The notes beneath the pieces are model-generated. The model was not told where the DNA came from. It did not search any database and worked only from the letters and a program-made list of their open reading frames with translations. Below are positions 2 through 43,005 of a stretch of 64,000 nt of DNA, piece after piece. The DNA comes from Mycoplasmatota bacterium WC30. GTDB lineage: Bacteria; Bacillota_I; Bacilli_A; Izemoplasmatales; Hujiaoplasmataceae. The stretch lies in assembly GCA_046529635.1 (NCBI GenBank), contig CP134495.1, forward strand, positions 1,694,556 to 1,758,555, given 5' to 3'. Positions within the stretch are counted from its first letter, which is position 1. Each line of letters opens with the position of its first letter. The position numbers and the translations under genes were made by a program.

Positions 2-2359
2 GTGCGAGATTTTGTTAATAAACTATACCACTTGAATGAAAGACAACATGATGGTGAGTTTTTAGTTAATACAAAAAGCAACGAAAAACTTCTTTGGGAT
101 TTTTATTCAACTTACTTAGGTAAAACAAAAGATGGATATAAAATGGCGATGAGCGTTGCGATTGATGTTACTGAAAGACAAAAATTGCTAAATAATTTGA
201 AATATGAACATGATAAATCACAACAGTATTTAGATGTCGCTGGAGTTATGCTCATTGTTCTAGATAATGAAGGAAATATCTCGAATATTAATGAAAAAGG
301 CTGTGAAATTCTTGAAGCAAAGGAAAATGAACTCATAGGAAAAAATTGGTTTGATAACTTTATTTCTGAAGAAATCAGAGACAATATTAAGAAAGTTTTC
401 TCGAATGTATTTAATAAAAGCGAGGACCTAGATTTGCATTTTGAAAATGAAATAATCACAGCTATGGGAAAAAAGAAAATCATAAATTGGTACAACACAG
501 TTATATATGACACAGAAAACAATGTTACTGGGGTTTTATCTTCAGGGGAAGATATTACCGAAAAGAAAGAATATGAAAAAGCTTTATTCGCTAGCAATCA
601 AAGATTTGAAAAGTTATTCGATAAAGCACCATTTGGTTATCAATCTTTAGACATAAATGGTAATTTCATTGAAGTTAATAATACTTGGTTGAATACAATG
701 GGTTATCAAAAAGATGAAGTTATTGGAAAATGGTTTGGTGATTTTTTACCTCAAGCATCTAAAGAGGAGTTCAAAAAAAGATTTAAAATCTTTAAAGAAA
801 AAGGGAAGATTCATTCAACGTTTCAAATGCTTCGTAAAAATGGAGATAAGGTATTAATAGAATTTGAAGGACTTATCGGTTATGATGAAAATCAACAGTT
901 TGCTCAGACATACTGTAATTTGAACGACATCACCAAGCGTAAGGAAATAGAAGAACAATTATTAATGAGTGAGAGTAATCTTAAATTGGCGCAGTCTATT
1001 GCTAAAATTGGTTCATGGGAGATAAATTTGGTTGATGGCTCTATGTGGGCGTCCAAAGAAGCATTTAAAATATATGAAATTGATGAGGAAAGCGGATTTG
1101 TTGATATAACTTCTATTCAAACGATGGTTGATAAGGATGATAGAGAGAAATTAGATATTGCTTTAGAAGAATTAATTAATAACAATAAACCATATGATGT
1201 AGTTTTTAAGCTACACACAAAAGATAGAAATATTAAATATATAAATTCTCGAGCTATTCTATTTACTGACTCAAAAAATAAACCAGTCAAAGTTATTGGT
1301 GTAATTCATGATATTTCAGACTTAAAGTATAAAGAACTTGAATTAGTGCATCTAAGCCAACGAGATTATTTGACAAATTTATATAATAGACGTTACTATT
1401 TTGAACAATTCAAACTGCTGAATAACCCAAGATATTATCCGCTTGGAGTAATGATGTTAGATTTGAATGGACTTAAAATAATTAATGATGCATTTGGTCA
1501 CTCGGCCGGAGATTTTGCATTAAAAACGATAGGAGATGTGTTAAAGGATTCATTTGAAGATAAAGATGTGGTTTCCAGAATTGGTGGAGATGAATTTACA
1601 GTCTTATTACCAAATACCTCATCTGAAAAACTTCAATACTACAAAGAAGAAATTATAAAAATTGTTAAAACAAAGAGTGTTGATAATATTGAATTATCAA
1701 TCGCTATTGGCTATGAATTAAAGAATAACATTAATGAAAAAATTGACGATATTCAAAAGTCAGCTGAAAATCGTATGTATCGACACAAGACAACCGAAGG
1801 ATCAAGTGTACGAAGCAAGGCAATTAATGCTATTTTACATACATTATCTGAGAAATACGAAGCTGAAAGAAGACATTCGAATAAAGTTAGCGAATTATGT
1901 AAAGAAATCGGAATAAAACTTAATTTAAGAGAAGATGAAATTAAAGAACTTGAACAAGCTGGTTTATTTCATGATATCGGAAAGATTTCAATTCCTGATA
2001 GTATTTTGAATAAACCTGGGAAATTGACTTTTGACGAATTTGAAGTTATTAAATCTCATACTGAAGTTGGATACCAAATATTAAGAGCTGCAGATGAGTA
2101 TTCAGATTTAGCTATCCAAGCACTACATCATCATGAAAGATGGGATGGTAAAGGTTATCCAAACGGAATGAAAGGTGAAGAAATCCCACTATTCTCTAGG
2201 ATTATTTGCGTCGTAGATGCCTATGAAGCTATGACAGCTGATAGGCCATATCGAAAAAAATTAAGTAATGAATATGCAAAATCAGAAATCAAAAAATATG
2301 CTGGCACCCAGTTTGATCCGAAGATTTCGAAGATATTCGTTGAACAAGTTCTAGAGTAA
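2..2359 (+). CDS. PAS-GGDEF-HD-GYP multidomain c-di-GMP signalling protein (5' partial; continues upstream of window)
   Basis: The ORF runs to the window edge. It has several PAS-like repeats, a GGDEF motif (RIGGDEF), and an HD-GYP domain (LFHDIGKI ... HHERWDGKGYP). It ends with TAA at 2357-2359. Confidence 0.75.
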   Translation: MRDFVNKLYHLNERQHDGEFLVNTKSNEKLLWDFYSTYLGKTKDGYKMAMSVAIDVTERQKLLNNLKYEHDKSQQYLDVAGVMLIVLDNEGNISNINEKGCEILEAKENELIGKNWFDNFISEEIRDNIKKVFSNVFNKSEDLDLHFENEIITAMGKKKIINWYNTVIYDTENNVTGVLSSGEDITEKKEYEKALFASNQRFEKLFDKAPFGYQSLDINGNFIEVNNTWLNTMGYQKDEVIGKWFGDFLPQASKEEFKKRFKIFKEKGKIHSTFQMLRKNGDKVLIEFEGLIGYDENQQFAQTYCNLNDITKRKEIEEQLLMSESNLKLAQSIAKIGSWEINLVDGSMWASKEAFKIYEIDEESGFVDITSIQTMVDKDDREKLDIALEELINNNKPYDVVFKLHTKDRNIKYINSRAILFTDSKNKPVKVIGVIHDISDLKYKELELVHLSQRDYLTNLYNRRYYFEQFKLLNNPRYYPLGVMMLDLNGLKIINDAFGHSAGDFALKTIGDVLKDSFEDKDVVSRIGGDEFTVLLPNTSSEKLQYYKEEIIKIVKTKSVDNIELSIAIGYELKNNINEKIDDIQKSAENRMYRHKTTEGSSVRSKAINAILHTLSEKYEAERRHSNKVSELCKEIGIKLNLREDEIKELEQAGLFHDIGKISIPDSILNKPGKLTFDEFEVIKSHTEVGYQILRAADEYSDLAIQALHHHERWDGKGYPNGMKGEEIPLFSRIICVVDAYEAMTADRPYRKKLSNEYAKSEIKKYAGTQFDPKISKIFVEQVLE

Positions 2360-5647: not shown

Positions 5648-6526
5648 TTGGAAGATAAAATTAAAGCAGTAAGAAAAATTCAAAACTACATTAGCAACAA
5701 AATTAAAGAACCGATAACCCTTTCGGATGTATCAAAAGTAGCGAATTATTCACTTTGGTATACATCTAGGATATTTAAGGAATTAACTGGAAAAACTATA
5801 TTCGAGTATATTAGATCAGTAAGGCTTACAAACGCAGCTAAGACTTTAAGGGATACTGATAAATTGGTAATTGATGTTGCATTTGATTTTGTTTTTGATT
5901 CTCATGAAGGTTTTACTAGAGCTTTTTCAAAAGAATTTAATATTACTCCAAAAACCTACCAAAAATCACCAGTTCCATTACAATACTTTATACCATATCA
6001 AGTAATGGATAAATCTTTGAGAAAGGAAAAGAAAGAGATTATGGAAATTAAATCAGTATTTGTCCAAGTTGTTGAAAGACCAAAAAGAAAAGCAATAATT
6101 AAGAGAGGAGTTAAAGCTACTCATTACTTTGAGTATTGTGAAGAAGTAAATTGCGATATTTGGGGAGTTTTATCAAGTGTTAAAGAAGCGATATCTGAAC
6201 CGGTGGGTATGTGGTTAAGTAAGAAACTACAGAAACCAAATACGTCACTTTATGTTCAAGGTGTAGAGGTGAATGATGATTACAAAGGAAAAATACCTGA
6301 AGGCTGTGAAATTATTGATTTACCAGAAACAAAAATGATGATATTTCAAGGAGAACCATATGACGATGAAAATTTTGAAACGGAAGTATCTCAGGTTATG
6401 AATTATGTTTCAAAGTATAACCCAAAAGTACATGGATATGATTATGATAAAAATGGGTATCGTTTTCAATATGAACCACTTGGTTACAGAGGATACATTG
6501 AGGGAAGAACAGTTATAAAACTTTAA
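5648..6526 (+). CDS. AraC-family transcriptional regulator with GyrI-like effector-binding domain
   Basis: TTG start preceded by RBS AGGGAGGTG. AraC HTH in the N-terminal 100 aa and a GyrI-like C-terminal half. Confidence 0.55.
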   Translation: MEDKIKAVRKIQNYISNKIKEPITLSDVSKVANYSLWYTSRIFKELTGKTIFEYIRSVRLTNAAKTLRDTDKLVIDVAFDFVFDSHEGFTRAFSKEFNITPKTYQKSPVPLQYFIPYQVMDKSLRKEKKEIMEIKSVFVQVVERPKRKAIIKRGVKATHYFEYCEEVNCDIWGVLSSVKEAISEPVGMWLSKKLQKPNTSLYVQGVEVNDDYKGKIPEGCEIIDLPETKMMIFQGEPYDDENFETEVSQVMNYVSKYNPKVHGYDYDKNGYRFQYEPLGYRGYIEGRTVIKL

Positions 6527-6753
6527 AAATACTTTGCCTTAGAAGAAAAACTATTACCTTGAAAAAATATAGAACAGAAACACTTTACAAATCGAAAATT
6601 GTAATCCTAGAGTTCATTCTAATAAGAGTGAACTTTTTGACTTTAATAAACATATAAGGTAGTATATTTCTGTATTTCACAAAATCATCAAATTTAAAAT
6701 GTGATTTCCGTAGTAAAATTAGAGTGACGAAATATTAAAGAGCTGGTGGTTAA

Positions 6754-9687
6754 ATGTTAAAAGTAGGAATAGATATCGGATCAACTACAATAAAATGTGT
6801 AATTCTAAATGAAAATTTAGAATTATGTTACAAAGATTATATGCGCCATAAAAGTAGTATTACAAAATCACTGATAATTTTGCTGAATGGTATTAAAAAT
6901 TACAATGTTAATAGTGAGGAAATGTATTTTAATATTACTGGGAGTGCAGGAATGTTAATAGCCAAGGATATTAATATTCAATTTACTCAAGAAGTTATAA
7001 GCGCAACTAAAGCGATTAAAAAGCAAGAAAAAGCGATTGATTGTTGTATCGAATTAGGTGGAGAAGATGCAAAAATCATTTTTTTTGATGGTAACAATGT
7101 TGAACAAAGAATGAATGGGACCTGTGCTGGTGGTACTGGAGCGTTTATTGATCAAATGGCTACATTATTAGATGTTGATCTAATTCAGTTAAATGAACTA
7201 GCTAAAACCTATGAAAAAATATATCCAATAGCTTCTCGATGTGGAGTGTTCGCAAAAAGTGATATACAACCCTTATTAAATCAAGGTGCGAATCATAATG
7301 ATATTGCTGTAAGTATTTACCAAGCTATTGTAAATCAAACTATAGCGGGTTTAAGTCAAGGACGTAAGATCAAAGGGAACGTAGCTTTTTTAGGTGGACC
7401 TTTAACATTTTCTAGTGAACTGCGTAAAAGATTTATTGAAACTCTAAACCTAGATGATGTATTAATACCAACCAATGGTGAAGTATTTGTAGCTTATGGT
7501 GCAGCTTTAGCGGCCGATGAGACTTTAATTTCTATTGAAGAACTTTTAAATATTGTCACGGATTATGAAAATCGTGAAGATAGAAAAGTAAAAAAAACCT
7601 TAAGCGCTTTGTTTGCTAATAGTCAAGAACTTGAAGAGTTTAAAGAAAGACACTCTGTCGCAAAAATAGATGAAATAAATATTGAAACATATACAGGTAA
7701 TGCTTATTTAGGTATTGATGCAGGGAGCACTACCACAAAATTAGTTCTTTTAAGCGAGGATAACAAAATACTTTATTATTTCTACTCACATAATAAAGGT
7801 AATCCAGTTGATATGGTAAAAACAGCTTTATATGAAATATATAAAGTTAAAAGTGATAAAGTTAACATTGTTTGTTCATATAGTACAGGATATGGTGAAG
7901 AATTAATAAAAAATGCTTTTAATTTAGATGGTAGTGAAGTTGAGACAATCTGTCATTATAAAGCCGCATCTTTCTTTAATAAAGATGTTGATTTTATAAT
8001 AGACATTGGTGGCCAAGATATGAAATGTTTTAAAATAACTAATGGTGTAATCTCATCCATTATCCTCAATGAAGCTTGTAGTAGTGGCTGTGGGAGCTTT
8101 TTAGAAACATTTAGTACTGGACTTGGTTATGACATTAAAGACTTTGCAACCCTAGCTTTAGAATCTCGTGAGCCTGTTGATTTAGGTAGTAGATGTACAG
8201 TTTTTATGAATAGCGGAGTCAAACAGGCACAAGCTGAGGCAGCTAAAACGGAAGACATCAGTGCGGGATTAGCATACAGCGTTGTTAAGAACGCATTATA
8301 TAAAGTAATTAGAACCGTTGATGCCCGTCATGATCTAGGCAATAATATAATTGTTCAAGGTGGTACTTTCTATAACAACGCAGTATTAAGAGCCTTTGAA
8401 AAAGAAATAGGCATGGAAGTCATTAGACCAAATATTGCCGGATTAATGGGAGCTTTTGGCGCGGCTTTAATTGCCAAAGAAAACACAAAAGAAAAATCCT
8501 CTTTGCTTCATATAAAAGAATTGGAAAATTTCACATATACAACCAAAAAAGCAGTATGTCGTAAATGTAGTAATTACTGTGGCTTAACAATCAATATCTT
8601 TAATAATGGGAAGTATATTTCTGGAAATCGTTGTGAAAAAGGTGCAGGTACAAATTCTAAAAAGGATCAAATACCAAACTTATATTTATATAAGTACAAT
8701 AAGATCATGAGTTATAAATCAAGTGAAAACAAAACCTATAGAGCCAAAGTAGGAATCCCCTTAGTAATGAATATGTATGAAAATATTCCATTTTGGTTCA
8801 CTTTCTTTGATTCATTAGGTATGGAAGTGGTATATAGTGATCGTTCAACCAAAACCATCTATGAATTAGGACAAGACAGCATTCCTAGTGACACAGCTTG
8901 TTATCCTGCTAAAATAGCGCATGGACATATTGAAAATCTTATTATAAAGAATGTTGATAAGATATTTTATCCAAATATGCCATTTAATTTTATTGAAAAA
9001 GACTATCGTGACAACGAATATAATTGTCCAGTAGTAGCTTTTTATCCTGAAGTTATTGGCGCAAACATGGAAAATCTTGATTTAAACAACTATCTAAAAC
9101 CATATCTCAGTTTAAATGAAAAAAGATACTTTATGAAAAACCTTTTAGCGTCATTTGAAAACGGACATCGAATACCAATGAGTCGGGCTGCTAAGGCTTA
9201 TGATAAAGCACTGAAAGCATACCATGATTATCGTAAAGATATTTTAGAATATGGTCAATTAGCCTTAAAATATGCCAAAGACAATAACAAAAAGATAATT
9301 TTATTGGCAGGAAGACCATATCATATAGATCCTGAAATTAATCACGGGATTCCAAAATTATTACAAAGTTTAGATGTAGTAGTTTTAAGTGAGGATTCTG
9401 TAAATACACTTGCCGATCAAGATTTGGTTAAAGTATTAAATCAATGGACGTATCATACAAGATTATATGATAGTGCAAAATTTATTAGTACTATTCCAAA
9501 TGCTAATCTAATTCAATTGATTTCCTTTGGATGTGGACTAGACGCAATAACCAGCGATGAAGTAAAAGACATTTTAGAAAATAACGGAAAAATGTATACT
9601 AGTATAAAAATTGATGAAGCAAGTAATTTAGGAACTGCTAATATCCGTATTAGAAGTTTACTTTCAACAATGAAAGGAACAAAATAG
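6754..9687 (+). CDS. BadF/BadG/BcrA/BcrD-type tandem ATPase ('CoA-substrate-specific enzyme activase'-like) fused to a Cys-cluster domain
   Basis: Two ASKHA ATPase N-termini (VGIDIGSTTIKCV and LGIDAGSTTTKLV). A CxxCxxxC...C motif (CRKCSNYCG...RCEKG) lies in the C-terminal third. Total 977 aa. Confidence 0.65.
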   Translation: MLKVGIDIGSTTIKCVILNENLELCYKDYMRHKSSITKSLIILLNGIKNYNVNSEEMYFNITGSAGMLIAKDINIQFTQEVISATKAIKKQEKAIDCCIELGGEDAKIIFFDGNNVEQRMNGTCAGGTGAFIDQMATLLDVDLIQLNELAKTYEKIYPIASRCGVFAKSDIQPLLNQGANHNDIAVSIYQAIVNQTIAGLSQGRKIKGNVAFLGGPLTFSSELRKRFIETLNLDDVLIPTNGEVFVAYGAALAADETLISIEELLNIVTDYENREDRKVKKTLSALFANSQELEEFKERHSVAKIDEINIETYTGNAYLGIDAGSTTTKLVLLSEDNKILYYFYSHNKGNPVDMVKTALYEIYKVKSDKVNIVCSYSTGYGEELIKNAFNLDGSEVETICHYKAASFFNKDVDFIIDIGGQDMKCFKITNGVISSIILNEACSSGCGSFLETFSTGLGYDIKDFATLALESREPVDLGSRCTVFMNSGVKQAQAEAAKTEDISAGLAYSVVKNALYKVIRTVDARHDLGNNIIVQGGTFYNNAVLRAFEKEIGMEVIRPNIAGLMGAFGAALIAKENTKEKSSLLHIKELENFTYTTKKAVCRKCSNYCGLTINIFNNGKYISGNRCEKGAGTNSKKDQIPNLYLYKYNKIMSYKSSENKTYRAKVGIPLVMNMYENIPFWFTFFDSLGMEVVYSDRSTKTIYELGQDSIPSDTACYPAKIAHGHIENLIIKNVDKIFYPNMPFNFIEKDYRDNEYNCPVVAFYPEVIGANMENLDLNNYLKPYLSLNEKRYFMKNLLASFENGHRIPMSRAAKAYDKALKAYHDYRKDILEYGQLALKYAKDNNKKIILLAGRPYHIDPEINHGIPKLLQSLDVVVLSEDSVNTLADQDLVKVLNQWTYHTRLYDSAKFISTIPNANLIQLISFGCGLDAITSDEVKDILENNGKMYTSIKIDEASNLGTANIRIRSLLSTMKGTK

Positions 9688-10950
9688 ATGGCAAAATTAA
9701 TATATGATGAAACCGGGAGATTACTTTTTACAGAAGAAATGCAAAAAGAATATAAAATCTTAATTCCAGCTATGGCTCCTTACCATTTTGAATACTTTGT
9801 CCATATGTTAAAAAGTGAAGGATATGATGCTGAAGTATTGAAAAACACAAGTTTCGATGTGATTCATGAAGGCATGAAATATTCGCATAATGATATTTGT
9901 GTTCCAGCTATGCTTGTGATAGGACAATTCATAGATGCTATTAAGAATGGCGGCTACGACGTTAACAAAGTAGCCTTAATAATAACTCAAACTGGTGGCG
10001 GATGTCGCGCTAGCAACTATTTAGCCCTCATACGCAAGGCATTTAAAGCGGCTGGTTATGATTACATTCCTATAATTAGTGTTAATGCCGTAGGCTTAGA
10101 AAAAAATCCAGGGTTTAAAATCACAAAGAACACTTTGCTGAAACTCATTACCGGGTTAATGATGGGCGATTTGTTAATGCAGTTATATAATGAAGTGGTT
10201 CCATACGAGATAAATAAAGGTGAAACAGAAAAAGTCTATCAAGAAGTAAATAAATATTTGGACGAGTATTTCTATTTACCAATAAAAAAAGTATTTTATC
10301 ATCCCACCAGACTATTTGAGAGAGTAATAAAAAGATTTAGTGAAATTGAAGTGGATAGAACAGTTTTAAAACCCAAAGTAGGAATCGTGGGTGAAATCTA
10401 TGTTAAGTATAGTCCATTAGGCAATAACAATCTTGAAGAAACTTTAAGGAAAGAAGGTTGTGAAGTAATCGTCCCTAATTTACTTGACTTCATTCAATAT
10501 ACGTTTGATTCATCTCGTCATGATATATATAAATATGGAGGTAAAAAAATCGTTGCGGAAATTTATCGTTTTTTAATTTGGTTTATTGAGCATCGTCGTG
10601 ATAAAATAAGAAGGCAATGTAAGAAATATGGTTTTAGAGTTTTTACAAAATACTATGATTTACGCAAAATGGCTAAAAATTATATGCCACACGCAATGCA
10701 TGTGGGTGAAGGTTGGTTGTTGACAGCTGAAATGATTGAATTAATTCACGTTGGAGCACCTAATATTGTTTGTACACAACCATTTGGATGTCTTCCAAAT
10801 CATATTGCTGGAAAAGCAATGATTTCTAAACTTAAACGAAATTACCCAGAAAGTAATATTGTCGCAATCGATTATGATACTAGCGCAACAGAGATTAATC
10901 AGTTAAATCGCATAAAATTAATGATTAGCAATGCGAAAGGCAATATGTAG
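9688..10950 (+). CDS. 2-hydroxyacyl-CoA dehydratase / DCCP-like (HgdB/DUF2229-type) partner subunit
   Basis: Its ATG directly abuts the upstream TAG, so the two genes are translationally coupled. 420 aa with conserved Cys in a GGGCRAS context. Confidence 0.5.
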   Translation: MAKLIYDETGRLLFTEEMQKEYKILIPAMAPYHFEYFVHMLKSEGYDAEVLKNTSFDVIHEGMKYSHNDICVPAMLVIGQFIDAIKNGGYDVNKVALIITQTGGGCRASNYLALIRKAFKAAGYDYIPIISVNAVGLEKNPGFKITKNTLLKLITGLMMGDLLMQLYNEVVPYEINKGETEKVYQEVNKYLDEYFYLPIKKVFYHPTRLFERVIKRFSEIEVDRTVLKPKVGIVGEIYVKYSPLGNNNLEETLRKEGCEVIVPNLLDFIQYTFDSSRHDIYKYGGKKIVAEIYRFLIWFIEHRRDKIRRQCKKYGFRVFTKYYDLRKMAKNYMPHAMHVGEGWLLTAEMIELIHVGAPNIVCTQPFGCLPNHIAGKAMISKLKRNYPESNIVAIDYDTSATEINQLNRIKLMISNAKGNM

Positions 10951-11100
10951 GCTTATTTCTGGGAGGATTCTATTATATTAAATATACAGATATAGCCAAT
11001 ACATATATAAGCTGAGATTCTAAAATTTACCCTCATTTTGGGTTAAAACGTGGAAATCGTGAGAAAAACACATATAATTCACGATATTTAAACAAAACCC

Positions 11101-11128
11101 TTGCATTTATTCAAAAATAGTGTAATAT
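11101..11128 (+). promoter_or_regulatory. Sigma-A type promoter of the cold-shock gene
   Basis: TTGCAT, a 16-nt spacer ending in TG, then TAATAT (extended -10). It is followed by a leader of about 90 nt, typical of csp genes. Confidence 0.6.
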
Positions 11129-11214
11129 TAATATGATATATGAATGTGGTATGAGATTAAGATAACGGAGTTACCTCAATTTTTGTAAAACAATTTGTAA
11201 AATCAAAATAATTT

Positions 11215-11427
11215 ATGGAGGTAACAAACATGACTGGTAAAGTTAAATGGTTCAATTCTGAAAAAGGATTCGGATTCATCACAGCTGAAAACGGAGAAGA
11301 TGTATTCGCTCATTTCTCTCAAATTCAAAAAGATGGATACAAATCTTTAGAAGAAGGAGAAGCTGTAAGTTTCGATGTAGTTGAAGGACAAAAAGGTCCT
11401 CAAGCTTCAAATATCGTAAGTTTATAA
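11215..11427 (+). CDS. cspA: cold-shock protein (CspA family)
   Basis: 70 aa with RNP motifs [12 protein letters not shown] and VFAHFS. RBS GGAGG. Confidence 0.9.
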
Positions 11428-11565: not shown

Positions 11566-12354
11566 ATGAAACTAAGTCAACGGAGGCAATTCATGAAGCG
11601 TACATCTATATTCATCTCAATATTACTCACACTATTACTAATATCTTGTTCTAATGGAAGGAAAGTTAAACCTTCAGGGTTTGATATATCAGACTTAGAA
11701 ACTTGTATGATAGAAATAGCAGATGGTGATCAAGCGAATACTTGTTCTTTTGATGATAGAAGGACATATTTAAACCAATATGCAGATTATTTTTTATCTG
11801 ATATAGATCATTCAGGCACAACAATATCTGTAGAACTACAAGATGTTATGTTTTATGGAAAAGAAGATATTCTCCTATTAATTAAATATTCGAATATTCC
11901 AATGGATGAAGCAAATTTTGATTATGATATTTATCAAAAGATATTTGAGGAAATATCATATGATATAAATGAGTTAACAGATGTGTATACATATGTTGAG
12001 TTAGAGTTTGAATTTCAAAATTATCTTACTTTGAAATTTGGTAGTTCAAATAACAATCTTGACAGCGATGATTACCATACCAGAGTCTTTAAATATTATA
12101 CACAAGACCAACTTGTACCCGAATTATTTGAAAGCTATTTTGGTGGATTTACATCGATTTTTACTGATGAAGCATACAGAGAAACAGATTTAATTATTTT
12201 AGCTGATGACTATACAGTTCATGTATCTTTAAACCCAGTTGAAAAGACTTACAATAATTCCATTACATCAAAAACTGAGGATTATTTTATGACCAATGCG
12301 GAAATAGATTTGGAAGTAGAAAACTTTTTGATAGATTTTACTGATTTTGAGTAA
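11566..12354 (+). CDS. lipoprotein, function unknown
   Basis: Signal peptide with lipobox LLISCSNG. Acidic mature protein. Confidence 0.5.
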   Translation: MKLSQRRQFMKRTSIFISILLTLLLISCSNGRKVKPSGFDISDLETCMIEIADGDQANTCSFDDRRTYLNQYADYFLSDIDHSGTTISVELQDVMFYGKEDILLLIKYSNIPMDEANFDYDIYQKIFEEISYDINELTDVYTYVELEFEFQNYLTLKFGSSNNNLDSDDYHTRVFKYYTQDQLVPELFESYFGGFTSIFTDEAYRETDLIILADDYTVHVSLNPVEKTYNNSITSKTEDYFMTNAEIDLEVENFLIDFTDFE

Positions 12355-12388
12355 GAAACAAAACATTTTTATTAAATGGAGGAATCAT

Positions 12389-13318
12389 ATGAGCAAAAGG
12401 AAAATAATTTTAGATTGTGACCCTGGACATGATGATGCAATTGCTATATTGTTAGCTGGAAACAATCCTAAAATAGATTTAATTGGTATCACAGTTGAAT
12501 CTGGGAATCAAACATTAGATAAAACGGGAAAAAACGCTTTAAATCTATGCCAATACTTAAATCTTGATATTCCTGTTTGTTTGGGTGCTCCAAATCCAAT
12601 TATTAAGGAAGTTGAAGTTTGTGAGCTGATACATGGAGAGTCTGGACTAGACGGATTTGAATTTCCGACTTTAACCAAAACCTTTGATAAACTAAATGCA
12701 GTTGAATTTATCATTAAAAGTATATTAGAAAGTAACGATAAAGTTACCATGGTGACAACAGGACCAATGACTAATCTAGCCTTAGCAATTAGGTTGGAAC
12801 CTAAGATTATTCAAAATATTGAAGAAGTTATCCTTATGGGTGGTTCCTACTCAAATGGAAATGTTACTCCGGCTGCTGAATTTAATATCTATTGTGATCC
12901 AGAAGCTGCACACATAGTATTTCAATCAGGCTGTAAAATAACAATGATAGGGTTAGATGTAACAAGAAAAGTTTTAGTTCTACCAGAAATAATGAGTAGA
13001 ATGGAAAAAATTCATAGTAAAGGTTCAGATTTATTCATCAAACTGATGAAGGTGTTTAACGACAATCAGAGTAAAGTGTTTGGCCTAGCGGGCGGACCAT
13101 TGCACGATCCAGTAACTATAGCCTATTTACTTGATTCTTCTGTGTTAAACTTAAAGTATGTTCATTGCGATATCGATATTTCACATGGATCTAGTTATGG
13201 AAGAACAAATTGTGATATATTTGATTATATGCATCTAGAAAAAAACACATATGTAGCGACCGCTATTGATGTTGATAAGTTTTGGAACATAATTGAAACA
13301 AGTTTAAAAAAGTATTAA
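12389..13318 (+). CDS. inosine-uridine preferring nucleoside hydrolase family protein
   Basis: N-terminal DCDPGHDDA aspartate motif. Start taken at the ATG at 12389, which follows RBS GGAGG. The six-frame ORF begins further upstream at 12347. Confidence 0.75.
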   Translation: MSKRKIILDCDPGHDDAIAILLAGNNPKIDLIGITVESGNQTLDKTGKNALNLCQYLNLDIPVCLGAPNPIIKEVEVCELIHGESGLDGFEFPTLTKTFDKLNAVEFIIKSILESNDKVTMVTTGPMTNLALAIRLEPKIIQNIEEVILMGGSYSNGNVTPAAEFNIYCDPEAAHIVFQSGCKITMIGLDVTRKVLVLPEIMSRMEKIHSKGSDLFIKLMKVFNDNQSKVFGLAGGPLHDPVTIAYLLDSSVLNLKYVHCDIDISHGSSYGRTNCDIFDYMHLEKNTYVATAIDVDKFWNIIETSLKKY

Positions 13319-15812: not shown

Positions 15813-16091
15813 ATGGATAAAAAAACCGAAGATAGAATTAAATCTTGTGCTGGAAATGATGGCTGTGCCCCTGACTTAAATGATGGAAAAGCAATCGTTG
15901 ATAAAGTAAGGCAAGTAGCTGTTGGAGCCGGATTATTAGAAACATTACATGTTATTGAATGTGAATGTGGTTTCTCATTTGAAATGCGCCATTTTGAAGA
16001 AAAATGCCCACAGTGTGGAATGGTATATGGAGTGACACCATGTAGCAGTCACGATAAAACCAATATTAAACCAGCAGGAGTGAATTATTAA
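15813..16091 (+). CDS. Cys-rich zinc-ribbon-like small protein
   Basis: 92 aa with CxxxxxxC, CEC and CPQCG pairs. Confidence 0.4.
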   Translation: MDKKTEDRIKSCAGNDGCAPDLNDGKAIVDKVRQVAVGAGLLETLHVIECECGFSFEMRHFEEKCPQCGMVYGVTPCSSHDKTNIKPAGVNY

Positions 16092-16140: not shown

Positions 16141-16191
16141 ATCCCTTTATTTAGAATTGTTTTTTTGCTATACTAGAGGAGAGGTGATTTG

Positions 16192-17007
16192 ATGTATGAT
16201 AAAGTATTAGAAGCTAAAGAATATATAGAAAGTATTATAAAATTAAAGCCTGAAACAGCCATTATTCTTGGCAGCGGACTAACTAGCATCATAGAAGAAC
16301 TTGAACAAAAAATCGAAATTGAGTATAGAGACATACCGAACTTTAAAATTAGTACAGTAAAAGGACATACGTCAAAGCTAGTAACTGGAATGTTGAACGG
16401 AACTCCGGTAATGCTAATGAGTGGTAGATTTCATTATTATGAAGGGTATTCAATGAAAGATATTACTTTTCCTATTTATGTGTTTAAGTTATTGGGTATC
16501 AAAAATCTAATATTAACAAATTCATGTGGTGGCATAAATTCAGATAAATTAGAACCTGGGACAATAATGGTTGTAAATGATTTTATTAACCTAATGCCTT
16601 CAAATCCTCTAATAGGTGAAAATGATGAAAGATTTGGTCCGCGTTTTCCAGATATGACCGAACCATATGATGTAGACTTAAGAGGTATCGCTAAGAAGAA
16701 AGCGAAGGAATTAAATATTAAATATGTTGAAGGAGTTTATGCTGGATTTATGGGACCATACTATGAAACTAAAGCCGAAATTCGAATGGTAAAAACGATG
16801 GGTAGTGACGCAATTGGAATGAGTACTGTCCCAGAAACAATTATCAGCAATTATTTAGGAATCAAGACTTTAGCATTTGCAACAATAACAAATATGGCTA
16901 CAGGAATTCAAAAGATGAAACACTCTCATGAGAATGTAATTTTAGTTGCTAATAAAGCAAGTATGAAGTTAGCTAGTTGGATTAAAGCAGTAGTAAAAGA
17001 ACTATAA
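16192..17007 (+). CDS. punA: purine nucleoside phosphorylase (PNP family 1)
   Basis: Start taken at ATG 16192, which follows RBS GAGGAGAGGTG. The six-frame ORF opens at TTG 16189. Typical PNP-I motifs GSGL and MSTVPE. About 271 aa. Confidence 0.8.
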   Translation: MYDKVLEAKEYIESIIKLKPETAIILGSGLTSIIEELEQKIEIEYRDIPNFKISTVKGHTSKLVTGMLNGTPVMLMSGRFHYYEGYSMKDITFPIYVFKLLGIKNLILTNSCGGINSDKLEPGTIMVVNDFINLMPSNPLIGENDERFGPRFPDMTEPYDVDLRGIAKKKAKELNIKYVEGVYAGFMGPYYETKAEIRMVKTMGSDAIGMSTVPETIISNYLGIKTLAFATITNMATGIQKMKHSHENVILVANKASMKLASWIKAVVKEL

Positions 17008-17784: not shown

Positions 17785-19482
17785 ATGGCAAAGAAAGTAT
17801 TAATAGTTGGTGGAGTTGCAGGCGGGGCTTCTGTAGCAGCTAGAGTTAGAAGACTTGACGAACACGCAGAAGTTACAATGTTTGAAAGAGGACCACACGT
17901 ATCTTTTTCAAATTGTGCACTACCATTCTTTTTAAGCAGAACAGTTGCTGAAAGTGATAATTTAGTTTTAATGTGTCCTGATCAATTTCAAAAACAATAC
18001 AATATTAACGCAAAAGTTAATAGCGAAGTTATTGAAATTAAATCTGCAGAACACAAAGTAGTTGTAAAAGACGTTTTAACAGGAAAAACTTATGAGGAAG
18101 AATATGATAAATTATTCTTATCTCCAGGTGCGAACCCTATCATGCCTCGTTCAATTAAAGGTATTGATGCAAATAATGTTTTCCCAGTTAGAAACGTTCC
18201 TGATATTGTTAAAATCGATAATTACATCAAAGAGAATAACGTAAAAGACATTGCTGTTATTGGTGGAGGATTTATCGGTGTTGAAGTTATGGAAAACCTA
18301 CATATGGCTGGGTTACATGTAACTTTAATTGAAGCAGCTGACCAAATCATGACACCATTTGATAATGATATGGCTCAATTACTTCATAAAGAAATTCTTG
18401 ACAATGGAGTAGACCTAATTGTTAGTGATGGTTTAAAAGAAATCAAAGAAGATAAAGTAGTTACTAATAGTGGTAAAGAAGTTAAAGCACAAGTAGTGAT
18501 TATGGCTATTGGTGTAAAACCAGAAGTTAGTTTAGCAGTAGCTGCTGGAGTTGAATTAGGAGTTACCGGTGGAATTAAAGTAGATGCTAACTATCGTACA
18601 AATGTGAAAGACATTTACGCTGTTGGTGACGCTATTGAAACTTATTGTACACAACTTCAAAAACCTACAAGACTTACTTTGGCTGGACCAGCTCAAAGAC
18701 AAGCAAGAGGTGCTGCTGATGATATGTATGGTAGAACTGTCCAAAACAAAGGTGTTATTGGTTCAAGTTGTGTGAAAGTGTTTGAATTGAATGCTGCTAA
18801 TACTGGATTAAATGAAAAACAATGTCAAACTGGAGAAATTCAATATGACTATGTGTATATAATTCCAAATGATATAGTAGGACTTATTCCTGGCTCAAAT
18901 CAAATTCATGTAAAACTATTATTTGAAGTTCCTACGGGAAGAATCGTTGGATGCCAAGCAATAGGTAAAGGAAACGTAGATAAGAGAATTGATGTAATAG
19001 CTGCTCTAATTACAAAAAGAGGAACATTAGACGACTTAAAAGAATTAGAATTATGTTATTCTCCAATGTTCTCAACAGCAAAAGACCCACTTAATCACGC
19101 CGCTTTAGTTGCTTTAAATGTATTAAACGGCGAATTTAAACAAGTTAAAGTATCAGATGTAAGAGAAATCGTTGAAAACGGTGGTTATATAATTGATGTA
19201 AGAGAACCTCAAGAATGGGAAAACGGACATATCAAAACTGCACATAATATCCCTATGAGTCAATTTAGACAAAGATTAGAAGAGATTCCTCATGACGTAC
19301 CAGTGTACCTACATTGCAGATCTGCTCAAAGATCATATAATGTAACACGTGCATTAGGTCAATTAGGATTTGATAATATTTATAATATTTCAGGTTCGTA
19401 TTTAGGAATTTGCTGTAATCAATATTTTGAAGATGTAACATTAAACAGAGATAAGATTGTAACAAAATACAATTTTATATAA
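17785..19482 (+). CDS. cdr: CoA-disulfide reductase with C-terminal rhodanese domain (CoADR-RHD / NAD(P)H sulfur reductase-like)
   Basis: FAD GxGxxG motif (VGGVAGGAS). Redox-active Cys in SFSNCALPF. C-terminal rhodanese motif LHCRSAQRS. Confidence 0.8.
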   Translation: MAKKVLIVGGVAGGASVAARVRRLDEHAEVTMFERGPHVSFSNCALPFFLSRTVAESDNLVLMCPDQFQKQYNINAKVNSEVIEIKSAEHKVVVKDVLTGKTYEEEYDKLFLSPGANPIMPRSIKGIDANNVFPVRNVPDIVKIDNYIKENNVKDIAVIGGGFIGVEVMENLHMAGLHVTLIEAADQIMTPFDNDMAQLLHKEILDNGVDLIVSDGLKEIKEDKVVTNSGKEVKAQVVIMAIGVKPEVSLAVAAGVELGVTGGIKVDANYRTNVKDIYAVGDAIETYCTQLQKPTRLTLAGPAQRQARGAADDMYGRTVQNKGVIGSSCVKVFELNAANTGLNEKQCQTGEIQYDYVYIIPNDIVGLIPGSNQIHVKLLFEVPTGRIVGCQAIGKGNVDKRIDVIAALITKRGTLDDLKELELCYSPMFSTAKDPLNHAALVALNVLNGEFKQVKVSDVREIVENGGYIIDVREPQEWENGHIKTAHNIPMSQFRQRLEEIPHDVPVYLHCRSAQRSYNVTRALGQLGFDNIYNISGSYLGICCNQYFEDVTLNRDKIVTKYNFI

Positions 19483-19502: not shown

Positions 19503-20762
19503 ATGAAAACAATGAGTAAAAGAAGTAAAATTGAAGCAATAATCGGATTTGCTTTAATAGCATTAGTACTTATATTAGGGTTCGCTGGAGCATTTTCAGC
19601 AACTGTATTCGTTAAATGTTTAATCGGGCTTGGATTTGGTTACGCGTTAACAAGAGGAGATTTCGGATTTGCAGGTTTATCAAACAGAGCTTGTAGAACT
19701 GGTTCGACAAAATTAATTAGATCATTAATGATAATGTTCGTAGTATCAGCTATGATCGTTGGAGCATTCATCGTTGGTGGAAGCAATCCTAGTTTATGGG
19801 TTAACCCAATTTCTTGGGGATTATTATTTGGTGGTATCTTATTCGGTATTGGTATGGCATTCTCAAGCTGCTGTGCAACTGGAGTATTACAAGATGTACC
19901 ACTTGGATTTAGCCGTGCATTAATCACTTTAGTATTCTTTGGAATCGGTGTATTCTTAGGATTCCCATTAATGTCTTCTAAATTTGTTAGAAGTGGTGTA
20001 ATCGGTTCAGATTCAGGTGTCTATATGGTTGATTGGTTCAGTGCAAACGGAACTAATTTGGCTGTTGGTGTTGTAGGAGCTTTATTAGTAACTATCTTAC
20101 TAGCTGTTTTAGTTGGTGCATTAGCAAAATGGTACGAAAAGAAAGTTGCTAAAAACTTCCCTAAACAAGAAGCAGTTGTAGCTGAAGAAAAAGAAGTTTC
20201 AGTATGGAACAGATTCTTTGTAAAAAAATGGTCAATGACTCAAACTGCAATAATAATAGCTATATTATTCGGAATGTTATATGCAGTAACAAATACAGGT
20301 TGGGGAGCTTCAACAGTTTATGGAAACTGGTTCGGAACTATTCTTCATAGATGGTTCGGTGTTTCTTTAGATTCATTAGCTAACTTCACAGGATGGACTA
20401 TTGAAAAAGCAACTTCTTCTTTCAATACATCATTATTTAAATCAGCTGGATACATGCAAAACGTTGGTATCATCGTTGGTGCATTTGTAGGATTATTATT
20501 ATCAGGTAAATTTACAACAGCATTTAAAGCTGGATTAAAAATCAAACCTTTAGAAATCTTATTATTCGTTGCAGGTGGTTTATTACTAGGTTTCGGTACT
20601 AGATTATCACTTGGTTGTAACGTTGGAGCATTATATACTCCAATCGCTAACTTCTCATTAGCAGGATGGTTCTATTTCTTCTTCCTATTTGCTGGAGGAT
20701 ATATTGGTAATATGATTAGAAAAGCATTCTACAAAAAAGTTGATTGTACTAAAATTCAATAA
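19503..20762 (+). CDS. YeeE/YedE-family (TsuA-like) sulfur-compound transporter
   Basis: Polytopic membrane protein with two repeats, each carrying a conserved Cys in a Gly-rich loop (NRACRTGSTK and LSLGCNVGALYTP). RBS GGAGGAAAG. Confidence 0.6.
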   Translation: MKTMSKRSKIEAIIGFALIALVLILGFAGAFSATVFVKCLIGLGFGYALTRGDFGFAGLSNRACRTGSTKLIRSLMIMFVVSAMIVGAFIVGGSNPSLWVNPISWGLLFGGILFGIGMAFSSCCATGVLQDVPLGFSRALITLVFFGIGVFLGFPLMSSKFVRSGVIGSDSGVYMVDWFSANGTNLAVGVVGALLVTILLAVLVGALAKWYEKKVAKNFPKQEAVVAEEKEVSVWNRFFVKKWSMTQTAIIIAILFGMLYAVTNTGWGASTVYGNWFGTILHRWFGVSLDSLANFTGWTIEKATSSFNTSLFKSAGYMQNVGIIVGAFVGLLLSGKFTTAFKAGLKIKPLEILLFVAGGLLLGFGTRLSLGCNVGALYTPIANFSLAGWFYFFFLFAGGYIGNMIRKAFYKKVDCTKIQ

Positions 20763-36537: not shown

Positions 36538-37353
36538 ATGTATAAAATTGAAAAGAAAGAAATCCTAAATGTTGATGTTGAACTAATGATTGTCAACGCA
36601 CCTCTAGTAGCTAAAAATACTCGACCAGGAAACTTCCTGATTATTAGAGTCGATAAATTTGGTGAAAGAATTCCATTGACTATAGTAGAAACAAACAAAG
36701 ATAGTGTAACAATAATTTATCAGAAACTAGGCTATTCAACTACCTTATTAAGTAAAATGAAGGTAGGAGATAGCTTATTTGATGTGGTAGGACCTCTGGG
36801 ACAACCCACTCACATAAAAGAAGTAAAAACAGTATTGGGTATTGCTGGAGGAGTTGGATCAGCACCATTATTTCCTCAACTTAAAGAATATGCAAGACTA
36901 GGCGCTAAAGTTGATTTAATCATTGGAGGTAGGACAAAAGAACATTTAATTTTAATAGATAAATACAAACAATTTTGTGAAAACATCTATTATGCAACTG
37001 ATGATGGTTCTTTTGGTACAAAAGGTTTTGTAACCCAAGTTGCTGAAGAGATTTATCAAACAAAAAAATATGATTTATCAATCGCAATAGGTCCGCTTAT
37101 AATGATGAAAAATACTGTAGCTTTAAATAAGAAATACAATATTGAAACAGAGGTTTCTTTAAATCCAATCATGATTGATGGGACTGGAATGTGTGGGAAC
37201 TGCCGTGTAACAATAAATGGAAAAACAAGGTTTGCTTGTGTAGATGGACCAGATTTTCCCGCAGAAGGCATCGATTTTGATGAACTGATGGCAAGACAAA
37301 ACTATTACAAAGAAGAAGAAAAACATATATGTAAATTGAAGTTGGGTAAATAA
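36538..37353 (+). CDS. nfnA: NADH-dependent reduced ferredoxin:NADP+ oxidoreductase small subunit (NfnA / SudB, PyrK-like)
   Basis: FAD/NAD-binding PyrK-like fold. C-terminal Cys cluster CGNCRV...C. Confidence 0.65.
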   Translation: MYKIEKKEILNVDVELMIVNAPLVAKNTRPGNFLIIRVDKFGERIPLTIVETNKDSVTIIYQKLGYSTTLLSKMKVGDSLFDVVGPLGQPTHIKEVKTVLGIAGGVGSAPLFPQLKEYARLGAKVDLIIGGRTKEHLILIDKYKQFCENIYYATDDGSFGTKGFVTQVAEEIYQTKKYDLSIAIGPLIMMKNTVALNKKYNIETEVSLNPIMIDGTGMCGNCRVTINGKTRFACVDGPDFPAEGIDFDELMARQNYYKEEEKHICKLKLGK

Positions 37354-38731: not shown

Positions 38732-38760
38732 ATAAATCAATTACAGATAAGAGGATATAC

Positions 38761-39192: not shown

Positions 39193-39199
39193 TTTTTCA

Positions 39200-39231
39200 T
39201 AAAAAAAAACCTTAGAAATTAAGGTTTTTTA
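39200..39231. terminator. Bidirectional terminator between convergent genes
   Basis: A9, stem aacctta / taaggtt with loop gaaat, then T6. Confidence 0.65.
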
Positions 39232-39245
39232 TTTTGTTAATTATT

Positions 39246-43000: not shown

Positions 43001-43005
43001 AGCTT

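What the first reader, a model, noticed from the sequence alone, without database searches (positions are those of the whole stretch)
6754..10950. Translationally coupled tandem-ATPase 'activase' plus HgdB/DCCP-like partner of unknown substrate
The first protein carries two BadF/BcrA/HgdC-type ATPase domains and a C-terminal Cys cluster. The second resembles the non-ATPase subunit of 2-hydroxyacyl-CoA dehydratase / double-cubane cluster proteins. In the established systems (HgdCAB, benzoyl-CoA reductase, DCCP/DCCP-R) such ATPases inject low-potential electrons into an Fe-S partner for difficult reductions. No acyl-CoA pathway genes flank the locus here, so its role is open. The neighbours are an AraC/GyrI regulator and a cold-shock gene.
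Basis: partly seen in the sequence, partly recalled or inferred. Interest (0 to 1): 0.6.

Follow-up and report, generated by a model that had tools for sequence, protein, structure and literature searches.

The report
Split anaerobic plasmalogen synthase (PlsA–PlsR)
These two abutting genes are the split form of a known oxygen-independent enzyme, PlsA–PlsR, which turns ordinary membrane phospholipids into ether lipids (plasmalogens), here in a wall-less marine Izemoplasma-like bacterium; it is an ordinary member of a known family that public databases mislabel as an acyl-CoA dehydratase.

Summary
ORF1 (6754-9687, 977 aa) has two BcrAD_BadFG ATPase domains, a four-Cys motif and a DUF2229 domain. 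ORF2 (9688-10950, 420 aa) starts directly after ORF1's stop codon.

Models of ORF2 and of the ORF1 C-terminal part match the non-ATPase subunits of 2-hydroxyacyl-CoA dehydratase, benzoyl-CoA reductase and DCCP, at 8-16% identity.

The 'unknown substrate' part is out of date. This architecture is the anaerobic plasmalogen synthase plsA-plsR of Clostridium perfringens (Jackson 2021). I retrieved a Clostridium plsA-plsR locus using the published C. perfringens cloning primer. It has the same layout (975 + 420 aa). It is 55% and 48% identical to ORF1 and ORF2 over essentially full length, with the same Pfam pattern. ORF1 joined to ORF2 aligns end to end with single 1,409-1,437-aa proteins, the fused form reported for E. 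faecalis and L. cremoris.

All predicted Fe-S cysteines are conserved. The substrate would be membrane phospholipid, which explains the missing acyl-CoA genes.

Not resolved: vinyl-ether versus saturated alkyl-ether (Ger-type) product.

Verdict: new member of a known kind, low interest. Side value: an annotation fix and a prediction of ether lipids in Izemoplasmatales.

The parts
6754..9687 (+). plsA-type gene (977 aa): ATPase 1 + ATPase 2 + four-Cys motif + DUF2229/HAD-like domain ('Act1-Act2-Red1')
   Evidence: ORF listed. Pfam and NCBIfam domains. 55% identity over 977 aa to the first gene of the Clostridium plsA-plsR locus L002. 76-87% identity to Izemoplasmatales proteins.
6760..7515 (+). 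ATPase domain 1 (about residues 3-254), with cluster-ligand Cys C124 and C163
   Evidence: First of two BcrAD_BadFG / TIGR00241 stretches. Invariant GxDxGSTTxK (residues 5-14), ELGGED (100-105), C124 and C163 in 18 sequences including Clostridium.
7708..8478 (+). ATPase domain 2 (residues 319-575), with cluster-ligand Cys C442 and C481
   Evidence: Pfam BcrAD_BadFG 319-574. Alignment to the HadI activator 4eht_A places C442 and C481 on HadI's conserved Cys in NDKCAAGTG and STCTVF. These are the HgdC-type cluster ligands from my own knowledge of HgdC. Both are invariant.
8557..8634 (+). Four-Cys motif CX2CX3C-X17-C (C602, C605, C609, C627); extra metal or Fe-S site, type undetermined
   Evidence: All four Cys are invariant in 18 sequences including Clostridium. 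The region is modelled as a small three-stranded beta unit with modest confidence.
8746..9684 (+). DUF2229 / HAD-like reductase domain 'Red1' (residues 665-977), with invariant C716, C758 and C927
   Evidence: Pfam DUF2229 at 665-883, E 1e-76. The AF2 model of residues 590-977 best matches HadC 3o3m_B (E 1.5e-5) and 9g87_B of the MbdON module (E 1.9e-4). Cys invariance.
9673..9678 (+). Shine-Dalgarno-like AAAGGA for ORF2, inside the end of ORF1
   Evidence: Read directly from the sequence. It lies 9 nt before the ATG at 9688. The stop TAG at 9685-9687 abuts the start codon.
9688..10950 (+). plsR-type gene (420 aa): second HAD-like subunit 'Red2', with invariant C71, C106 and C368
6609..6665 (+). 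Terminator-like hairpin (6609-6636) after the regulator gene, then a promoter-like site (TTGACT-17-TAGTAT, 6637-6665) ahead of plsA
   Evidence: Consensus scan only. It suggests plsA-plsR is its own transcription unit. Not evidence of function.
5648..6526 (+). AraC/Rob-like regulator (292 aa); possible but unproven regulator of the operon
   Evidence: HTH_18 and HTH_AraC. N-terminal similarity to Rob 1d5y, which has the same overall length. A 291-292-aa AraC gene also lies upstream of the pair in Xianfuyuplasma and Izimaplasma HR1, but is only 29% identical. It is absent in an Acholeplasmatales MAG.

Best explanation
ORF1 and ORF2 are the two subunits of an anaerobic plasmalogen synthase of the PlsA-PlsR type. 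ORF1 is PlsA and ORF2 is PlsR. The enzyme would convert the sn-1 acyl ester of an already made membrane glycerophospholipid (PE or PG type) into a 1-alk-1'-enyl (vinyl) ether without oxygen.

Proposed mechanism.
- The two ATPase domains of ORF1 form an intramolecular pseudo-dimer. It holds one bridging [4Fe-4S] cluster on C124, C163, C442 and C481.
- A low-potential donor, probably ferredoxin or flavodoxin, reduces this cluster.
- ATP hydrolysis drives the electron into the Fe-S centres of a HadB/HadC-like heterodimer. That heterodimer is made of the ORF1 C-terminal domain (C716, C758, C927) and ORF2 (C71, C106, C368).
- There the ester carbonyl receives two successive electrons and protons, and water is eliminated to give the vinyl ether.

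Shown here: the domain content, the fold, the conserved cysteines, the tight gene pairing, the existence of fused forms, and full-length homology to a Clostridium plsA-plsR locus.

Inferred: the cluster types, the electron donor, the ATP stoichiometry, the lipid substrate and the vinyl-ether product.
For: 1. Literature. plsA-plsR (CPE1194/1195) of C. perfringens and the single-gene plsA of E. faecalis, L. cremoris and B. longum each make E. coli produce plasmalogens. [quoted passage not shown] The proposed chemistry is two sequential one-electron reductions, protonation and dehydration (PMC8788747).

2. Reference locus. The published C. perfringens forward cloning primer found Clostridium locus L002. 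From the primer's TTG, L002 encodes 975 aa plus 420 aa in 4,199 bp. That equals the fragment size reported for CPE1194/1195. The reverse primer aligns to the 3' end of the second L002 gene with 4 mismatches.

3. Homology. ORF1 is 55% identical to the L002 first gene over 977 aa. ORF2 is 48% identical to the second gene over 407 aa, E 2e-135. The Pfam pattern is the same in both pairs.

4. Fusion evidence. ORF1 joined to ORF2 (1,397 aa) aligns in one HSP with single proteins of 1,409-1,437 aa at 46-50% identity.

5. Conserved pairing. The pair is adjacent, abutting or overlapping, in Xianfuyuplasma, Izimaplasma HR1 and an Acholeplasmatales MAG, whatever the flanking genes.

6. Conserved residues. 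All predicted cluster Cys and ATPase motifs are invariant.

7. Fold. ORF2 matches the HAD, BCR and DCCP non-ATPase subunits. The ORF1 C-terminal part matches HadC and a chain of the BCR MbdON module.

8. Context. No acyl-CoA pathway genes flank the pair, as expected for a lipid-modifying enzyme.
Against: - No lipid data exist for this organism. In the held literature no paper links Izemoplasmatales with plasmalogens. A lipid study of Hujiaoplasma reports PE, PG, PC and PS and mentions no plasmalogens, aldehydes or dimethyl acetals.
- The reference locus L002 is a close relative of C. perfringens, not the tested strain. I could not align directly to Q8XL48/Q8XL47 or Q835P9.
- Homologues of the same family (Ger of T. 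maritima and D. alkenivorans) make saturated alkyl ethers. No sequence rule separating the two products is established, so the product assignment rests on closer similarity and taxonomy.
- 48-55% identity does not guarantee identical substrate specificity.
Confidence: 0.75

Rival explanations
1. It is a glycerol ester reductase of the Ger type. The machinery is the same, but the final product is a saturated sn-1 alkyl ether (1-O-alkyl glycerolipid), possibly via a plasmalogen intermediate, as shown for T. maritima Tmari_0479 and D. alkenivorans SHJ90043.
For: Ger and PlsA/PlsR are homologous and share the BBD core (two BcrAD_BadFG domains plus DUF2229) (PMC13159169). No residue-level discriminator is published. 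I could not fetch Ger sequences to compare. ORF2 has a faint HGD-D hit (14.5 bits), a domain listed in Ger architectures.
Against: The split 975-977 + 420 aa layout and the Pfam pattern (BBD plus a weak DUF2229 hit) match the Clostridium plsA-plsR locus. They do not match the fused BBDHDDH/BBDHDHDH architectures described for Ger. The HGD-D hit is far below threshold. Confirmed Ger hosts named in the papers read here are a Thermotoga and a sulfate reducer. Plasmalogen producers include many Firmicutes, among them Erysipelotrichales and lactic acid bacteria. [quoted passage not shown]
Confidence: 0.13
2. It is what public annotation says: a 2-hydroxyacyl-CoA dehydratase (for example phenyllactate dehydratase) or benzoyl-CoA-reductase-like enzyme with a fused activator, acting on a CoA thioester in amino-acid or aromatic fermentation.
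For: Source names of close homologues include 'R-phenyllactate dehydratase activator', 'acyl-CoA dehydratase activase' and '2-hydroxyacyl-CoA dehydratase'. The fold and the ATPase domains belong to that superfamily.
Against: The HGD-D (PF06050) domain that defines HgdA/B-type subunits is not met: 14.5 bits against a threshold of 28.4. Identity to the HAD and BCR subunits is 8-16%. No CoA-transferase, 2-hydroxyacid dehydrogenase or acyl-CoA genes are nearby in any of four genomes. The benzoyl-CoA reductase equivalog models of NCBIfam score far below their cut-offs. Homology to the plasmalogen synthase locus is much stronger.
Confidence: 0.03
3. It is a DCCP-like ATP-dependent reductase of small molecules (acetylene, azide, hydrazine type) with a double-cubane [8Fe-9S] cluster, as the first reader suggested testing.
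For: DCCP (7yyl, 6eno) is among the best structural matches of ORF2. DCCP-R matches the ATPase domain by sequence (7yyl_E).
Against: Each HAD-like module here has only three invariant Cys. That is the pattern of one [4Fe-4S] per HadB/HadC subunit, whereas DCCP uses six Cys ligands in one subunit (the DCCP ligand count is my own knowledge). Identity to DCCP is 10-13%. HadC and a BzdNO chain score as well or better. The two-module heterodimer plus fused tandem ATPase is the PlsA/PlsR architecture.
Confidence: 0.03

Closest known systems
Anaerobic plasmalogen synthase PlsA-PlsR of Clostridium perfringens (CPE1194/CPE1195; UniProt Q8XL48/Q8XL47; Jackson et al. 2021)
   Same: Two adjacent genes in the same order. 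Sizes are 977 + 420 aa here and 975 + 420 aa in the Clostridium relative L002. The Pfam pattern is the same. Identity is 55% and 48% over essentially full length. The conserved Cys set is the same. No pathway genes are attached.
   Different: The host is a wall-less Izemoplasmatales bacterium. Here the genes abut (TAG then ATG), while L002 has an 8-nt gap. An AraC/Rob-like regulator lies upstream. Downstream, L002 has a response regulator and histidine kinase, while this window has a cold-shock gene. Activity has not been tested for this lineage.
Single-polypeptide PlsA of facultative anaerobes (E. faecalis EF1327/Q835P9, L. cremoris, B. longum; PMC12838417)
   Same: The same four modules (Act1, Act2, Red1, Red2) in the same order. 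ORF1 joined to ORF2 aligns end to end with fused proteins of 1,409-1,437 aa at 46-50% identity.
   Different: Those are one gene of 4.2-4.9 kb, and this is two. The fused representatives I retrieved are unnamed, and their termini did not match the E. faecalis or L. cremoris primers. A TetR/AcrR regulator is reported upstream in facultative anaerobes, not an AraC type.
Glycerol ester reductase Ger ('modified PlsA'; T. maritima Tmari_0479/AGL49404, D. alkenivorans SHJ90043; PMC13159169)
   Same: The BBD core and an anaerobic reduction of the sn-1 ester of a glycerolipid.
   Different: Ger gives saturated alkyl ethers. It is described as a fused protein with BBDHDDH or BBDHDHDH Pfam architecture. 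Here HGD-D is not detected above threshold and the second module is a separate gene.
2-Hydroxyacyl-CoA dehydratases with activator (HgdCAB, HadI/HadBC) and class I benzoyl-CoA reductases (Bcr/Bzd/Mbd)
   Different: The substrate is a membrane ester lipid, not a CoA thioester. The ATPase is a tandem fusion joined to one of the Fe-S subunits. Identity is 8-16%. An extra four-Cys motif is present.
Double-cubane cluster protein DCCP with DCCP-R (PDB 6eno, 7yyl)
   Different: DCCP is a single type of subunit with six Cys for one [8Fe-9S] cluster (own knowledge). Here there are two different modules with three invariant Cys each.

Membership tests
PlsA-PlsR anaerobic plasmalogen synthase | Two tandem BcrAD_BadFG (HgdC-type) ATPase 'activation' domains with intact nucleotide motifs and cluster-ligand cysteines | tested here: met
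   Two stretches in Pfam and TIGR00241. Invariant GxDxGSTTxK and (E/D)xGG(E/Q)D motifs and C124, C163, C442, C481.
PlsA-PlsR anaerobic plasmalogen synthase | First reduction/dehydration module: a DUF2229 (PF09989) domain fused behind the ATPases (BBD architecture) | tested here: met
   PF09989 E 1e-76 at residues 665-883. HadC-like fold. The Clostridium plsA homologue has the same architecture.
PlsA-PlsR anaerobic plasmalogen synthase | Second reduction module (PlsR), encoded directly downstream or fused to the C-terminus | tested here: met
   ORF2 abuts ORF1. It is 48% identical to the second gene of L002. It is colinear with the C-terminal ~400 aa of fused proteins.
PlsA-PlsR anaerobic plasmalogen synthase | Full-length homology to an experimentally validated enzyme (Q8XL48/Q8XL47, Q835P9) | tested here: inconclusive
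   Tested only through a proxy. L002 was fetched with the C. perfringens plsA primer and has the same 4,199-bp span. Its 3' end differs from the C. perfringens reverse primer at 4 of 22 bases. The validated sequences themselves were not available to the tools.
PlsA-PlsR anaerobic plasmalogen synthase | Confers vinyl-ether (plasmalogen) formation from diacyl phospholipids under anoxic conditions | not testable with these tools
   Needs heterologous expression and lipid analysis.
Ger (glycerol ester reductase, saturated alkyl ethers) | BBD core followed by alternating short DUF2229 and HGD-D (PF06050) hits in one polypeptide (BBDHDDH or BBDHDHDH) | tested here: not met
   ORF2 shows only a sub-threshold DUF2229 hit (27 bits) and a faint HGD-D hit (14.5 bits against a threshold of 28.4), and it is a separate gene. 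The criterion is weak: the authors report many variations in architecture after the BBD core among alkyl-ether producers and say more study is needed to find which domains are required.
2-Hydroxyacyl-CoA dehydratase (HgdAB/HadBC/FldBC) with activator | HGD-D (PF06050) domain in both dehydratase subunits, a separate ~260-aa homodimeric activator, and CoA-transferase or 2-hydroxyacid dehydrogenase genes in the cluster | tested here: not met
   PF06050 is below threshold. The activator is a tandem fusion within ORF1. No such neighbours are present in the window or in three related genomes.
Class I benzoyl-CoA reductase | Four separate subunits (BcrA/D ATPases plus BcrB/C), matching the equivalog models | tested here: not met
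   TIGR02259, TIGR02261 and TIGR03192 score 48-125 bits against cut-offs of 313-578. Similarity is at fold level only.
DCCP / DCCP-R | One ~420-aa subunit type with six conserved Cys for an [8Fe-9S] double cubane, and a separate ATPase | tested here: not met
   ORF2 has three invariant Cys. A fourth, C362, is kept in 67 of 108 representatives. Identity to DCCP is 10-13%. The six-Cys criterion is from my own knowledge of Jeoung & Dobbek 2018.

The most novel reading that the evidence does not exclude
In this wall-less lineage the membrane is the only envelope. There the PlsA/PlsR-type enzyme might not make classical plasmalogens. It might act on a different ester lipid (for example glycolipids or lyso-lipids) or give saturated ether lipids, as a membrane-stabilising adaptation to pressure, salinity or lack of a wall. 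The nearby Rob-like AraC regulator would make it inducible by an environmental or membrane cue. Nothing here excludes this, because product and substrate were inferred only from 48-55% identity.
Probability: 0.12. Interest if true: 0.4.

Novelty: new member of a known kind. Interest (0 to 1): 0.18.

Why it matters
The scientific gain is small but has practical uses.

1. Annotation. Public records name these genes in Izimaplasma, Xianfuyuplasma and Acholeplasmatales genomes 'R-phenyllactate dehydratase activator', 'acyl-CoA dehydratase activase' or '2-hydroxyacyl-CoA dehydratase'. That would wrongly suggest amino-acid fermentation via 2-hydroxyacyl-CoA. NCBIfam has no specific model for the family.

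2. A testable prediction. Free-living wall-less Izemoplasmatales of marine sediments should make ether lipids, most likely plasmalogens, when anoxic. This bears on how a wall-less cell stabilises its membrane. It also bears on the sources of ether-lipid and dimethyl-acetal biomarkers in sediments.

3. A fusion/fission example. The split, fused and intermediate gene forms document that the four modules act as one enzyme.

It does not open a new class of chemistry.

Tried and rejected
- The Jackson 2021 paper (PMC7812594) is not held. I relied on later papers that cite it.
- The supplements of PMC13159169 are not held. I therefore had no table of Ger architectures or sequences.
- The single genome-contig scan went on the C. 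perfringens forward primer. It returned two Clostridium loci but not C. perfringens itself. L001 is cut inside the operon.
- The C. perfringens reverse primer does not match L002 within 3 mismatches. By eye it aligns to the 3' end of the second gene with 4 mismatches.
- The afdb50 fold library was not available. I could not look for Q8XL47, Q8XL48 or the T. maritima Ger by accession.
- A PDB sequence search with ORF2 found nothing meaningful. NCBIfam has no model for ORF2.
- An hhalign comparison of ORF1 and ORF2 profiles, meant to show internal Red1/Red2 homology, was not significant (E 0.056, probability about 1%). It does align C716 with C71. The structure models were used for this question.
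- I compared the termini of the fused representatives P0245, P0248 and P0259 with the E. faecalis and L. cremoris primer-encoded ends.
- No held paper links Izemoplasmatales with plasmalogens. A search on Anaeroplasma/Acholeplasma with plasmalogen gave nothing useful. The Hujiaoplasma lipid data mention no plasmalogen markers.
- I tested whether the AraC regulator is a conserved partner. A gene of the same type and size is upstream in two relatives, but at only 29% identity, and it is absent in a third. I left this as a possibility only.
- Rfam and tRNA scans of the window found nothing. There is therefore no known riboswitch in the 227-nt leader.

Full report
**What is in the sequence**

- Two ORFs occupy the stated coordinates on the + strand: 6754..9687 (977 aa) and 9688..10950 (420 aa).
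- The TAG stop of the first (9685-9687) is followed at once by the ATG of the second. An AAAGGA motif lies 9 nt upstream of that ATG.
- A terminator-like hairpin (6609-6636) follows the upstream AraC-type gene. A promoter-like site (6637-6665) lies ahead of ORF1. These are consensus matches only.
- The window has about 30% G+C.
- The closest homologues are from Candidatus Izimaplasma, Izemoplasma and Xianfuyuplasma, at 76-90% identity. The host is therefore an Izemoplasmatales-like, wall-less anaerobe.

**ORF1**

- Pfam finds BcrAD_BadFG in two stretches (E 4e-60) and DUF2229 at residues 665-883 (E 1e-76). TIGR00241 'acyl-CoA dehydratase activase' also matches twice.
- PDB sequence hits are the activators of 2-hydroxyisocaproyl-CoA and 2-hydroxyglutaryl-CoA dehydratase, MbdQ/MbdP of 3-methylbenzoyl-CoA reductase, and DCCP-R.
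- In an alignment of 18 homologues including a Clostridium protein, these features are invariant:
  - the ASKHA phosphate motifs of both ATPase halves;
  - four Cys at the HgdC-type cluster positions (C124 and C163 in half 1, C442 and C481 in half 2);
  - a CX2CX3C-X17-C motif (C602, C605, C609, C627);
  - three Cys in the C-terminal domain (C716, C758, C927).
- An AlphaFold2 model of residues 590-977 (pLDDT 76) best matches HadC (3o3m_B, E 1.5e-5) and 9g87_B of the MbdON module of 3-methylbenzoyl-CoA reductase (E 1.9e-4). ORF1 therefore carries its own HAD/BCR-like Fe-S module.

**ORF2**

- Sequence methods say little. There is a sub-threshold DUF2229 hit (27 bits against 29.4), a faint HGD-D hit (14.5 against 28.4), no NCBIfam hit and no meaningful PDB hit.
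- The AlphaFold2 model is confident (pLDDT 87, pTM 0.89).
- Three Cys are invariant in 64 close homologues: C71, C106 and C368. Across 108 full-coverage cluster representatives at 30-53% identity they are kept in 108, 107 and 106.

**What it is**

- A literature search for DUF2229 led to the anaerobic ether-lipid enzymes.
- The plsA-plsR operon of C. perfringens (CPE1194/1195) is the oxygen-independent plasmalogen synthase. It is a BCR/HAD-family enzyme with two activation and two reduction/dehydration domains. It makes E. coli produce plasmalogens.
- In E. faecalis, L. cremoris and B. longum the same enzyme is one gene of 4.2-4.9 kb.
- I took the gene-specific part of the published C. perfringens forward cloning primer and scanned the genome collection with it. 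This gave Clostridium sp. LIBA-8841 locus L002.
- From the primer's TTG, L002 encodes 975 aa, then 420 aa after an 8-nt gap. The span is 4,199 bp, the fragment size reported for CPE1194/1195.
- The reverse primer aligns to the 3' end of the second gene with 4 of 22 mismatches. L002 is therefore a close relative of C. perfringens, not the tested strain.
- ORF1 is 55% identical to the first L002 protein over 977 aa. ORF2 is 48% identical to the second over 407 aa, E 2e-135. The Pfam patterns are the same, including the weak DUF2229 hit at residues 33-84/86 of the small protein.

**Fusion evidence**

- A search of 1.84 billion cluster representatives with ORF2 found 3,489 related clusters.
- In many of them the match is the C-terminal ~400 residues of a 1,400-1,480-aa protein.
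- ORF1 joined to ORF2 (1,397 aa) aligns in a single end-to-end HSP with five such proteins, at 36-50% identity.
- The junction (…IRIRSLLSTMKGTK* / MAKLIYDETGRLLFTEEM…) corresponds to a short linker in the fused forms.
- Among the 108 full-coverage representatives, 51 are stand-alone, 22 are fused and 35 are of intermediate length.
- In Xianfuyuplasma, Izimaplasma HR1 and an Acholeplasmatales MAG the two genes are always adjacent and overlap by 1-8 nt.

**Mechanism (inferred)**

- By analogy with HgdC and HadI, the two ATPase halves form a pseudo-dimer. It holds one [4Fe-4S] cluster on C124, C163, C442 and C481.
- After reduction by a low-potential donor, ATP hydrolysis pushes the electron to the clusters of the Red1 (ORF1 C-terminal) and Red2 (ORF2) modules. 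Each has three Cys ligands, as in HadB/HadC.
- The published proposal for PlsA/PlsR is two sequential one-electron reductions of the sn-1 ester, protonation and dehydration to the vinyl ether.
- The reaction is a net two-electron reduction. ATP use should therefore be stoichiometric, as in benzoyl-CoA reductase, rather than catalytic as in the dehydratases. This point is my inference.
- The role of the four-Cys motif is open: an extra cluster or a structural metal site.

**Context**

- No acyl-CoA genes flank the pair, here or in relatives. This fits a lipid substrate.
- In the three relatives the pair sits just upstream of tgt-ftsZ-sepF-ileS. In this window it is followed by a cold-shock gene, so the surroundings are rearranged.
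- A Rob-like AraC regulator lies upstream here and in two relatives. Those are only 29% identical to it, and it is missing in the third relative. A regulatory link is possible but unproven.
- For comparison, a TetR/AcrR regulator is reported upstream of pls in facultative anaerobes.

**What remains uncertain**

- Homologues called Ger (T. maritima, D. alkenivorans) make saturated alkyl ethers. No sequence rule separates the two products, and I could not obtain Ger sequences.
- The split layout, the Pfam pattern and the Firmicutes-derived placement of the host favour the plasmalogen type. I give about 0.75 to PlsA/PlsR and 0.13 to Ger.
- No held paper reports plasmalogens in Izemoplasmatales. 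A lipid study of Hujiaoplasma lists PE, PG, PC and PS without looking for vinyl ethers.
- From my own knowledge, plasmalogens were described long ago in the anaerobic mollicute Anaeroplasma. I could not confirm this in the library.

**Verdict**

This is a split PlsA-PlsR-type anaerobic ether-lipid (most likely plasmalogen) synthase.
- It is a new member of a known kind, mislabelled in public annotation. Interest is low.

Noticed in passing
homologues of window 6754-10950 in public records: Sources name the close homologues 'R-phenyllactate dehydratase activator', 'acyl-CoA dehydratase activase', '2-hydroxyglutaryl-CoA dehydratase, D-component' or 'sugar kinase/HSP70/actin superfamily'. None says plasmalogen synthase. 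NCBIfam release 20 has no specific model for either protein.
   Followed up: partly
L003 5068-9263, L005 3063-7269, L006 3071-7263 compared with window 6754-11427: In Xianfuyuplasma, Izimaplasma HR1 and an Acholeplasmatales MAG the pair lies directly upstream of tgt-ftsZ-ylmE-sepF-ylmG-ylmH-ileS. queA is upstream in two of the three. In this window a cold-shock gene, a gene with no Pfam match and a nucleoside hydrolase follow instead, so the locus has been rearranged.
   Followed up: partly
cluster representatives P0247, P0254, P0258, P0264 and others: 35 of 108 full-coverage relatives of ORF2 are 520-1,250 aa long, with the PlsR-like part at the C-terminus. Some may be Red1+Red2 fusions with a separate ATPase gene, which would be a third way of splitting the enzyme. 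Others may be fragments.
   Followed up: no
window 2-2359 (+): Large signalling protein with several PAS domains, a GGDEF domain and an HD-GYP-type HD_5 domain (cyclic-di-GMP turnover). It probably runs off the left end of the window.
   Followed up: no
window 12347-13318 (+) and 16189-17007 (+): Inosine-uridine nucleoside hydrolase and a purine/uridine phosphorylase-family gene lie close together. This fits the nucleic-acid-scavenging lifestyle described for Izemoplasmatales.
   Followed up: no
window 17785-19482 (+) and 19503-20762 (+): Pyridine-nucleotide disulfide oxidoreductase with a C-terminal rhodanese domain (CoA-disulfide or persulfide reductase type), followed by a Sulf_transp (YeeE/YedE-like) membrane protein. 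This looks like a sulfur-handling pair.
   Followed up: no
window 36538-37353 (+) and 37355-38731 (+): Abutting genes with DHODB_Fe-S_bind and with Fer4_20 + Pyr_redox_2 domains. The layout is that of NfnAB/SudAB-type ferredoxin-linked NAD(P) oxidoreductases. It hints at a low-potential ferredoxin pool that could feed PlsA.
   Followed up: no
window 23464-25467 (-): A 667-aa protein with a CotH kinase domain (spore-coat kinase family) in what appears to be a wall-less lineage. From general knowledge I expect such a lineage to be non-sporulating; the tools did not test this.
   Followed up: no
window 43639-45675 (-): Membrane-bound proton- or sodium-pumping pyrophosphatase (H_PPase, E 5e-269).
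   Followed up: no
window 48001-50000 and 38000-46000: G+C drops to 0.248 at 48-50 kb. GC skew changes sign between about 38 and 46 kb, where several genes are on the minus strand.
   Followed up: no
window 15813-16091 (+): Small 92-aa ORF with paired Cys motifs (CECG…CPQCG), zinc-ribbon-like. No family search was run on it.
   Followed up: no
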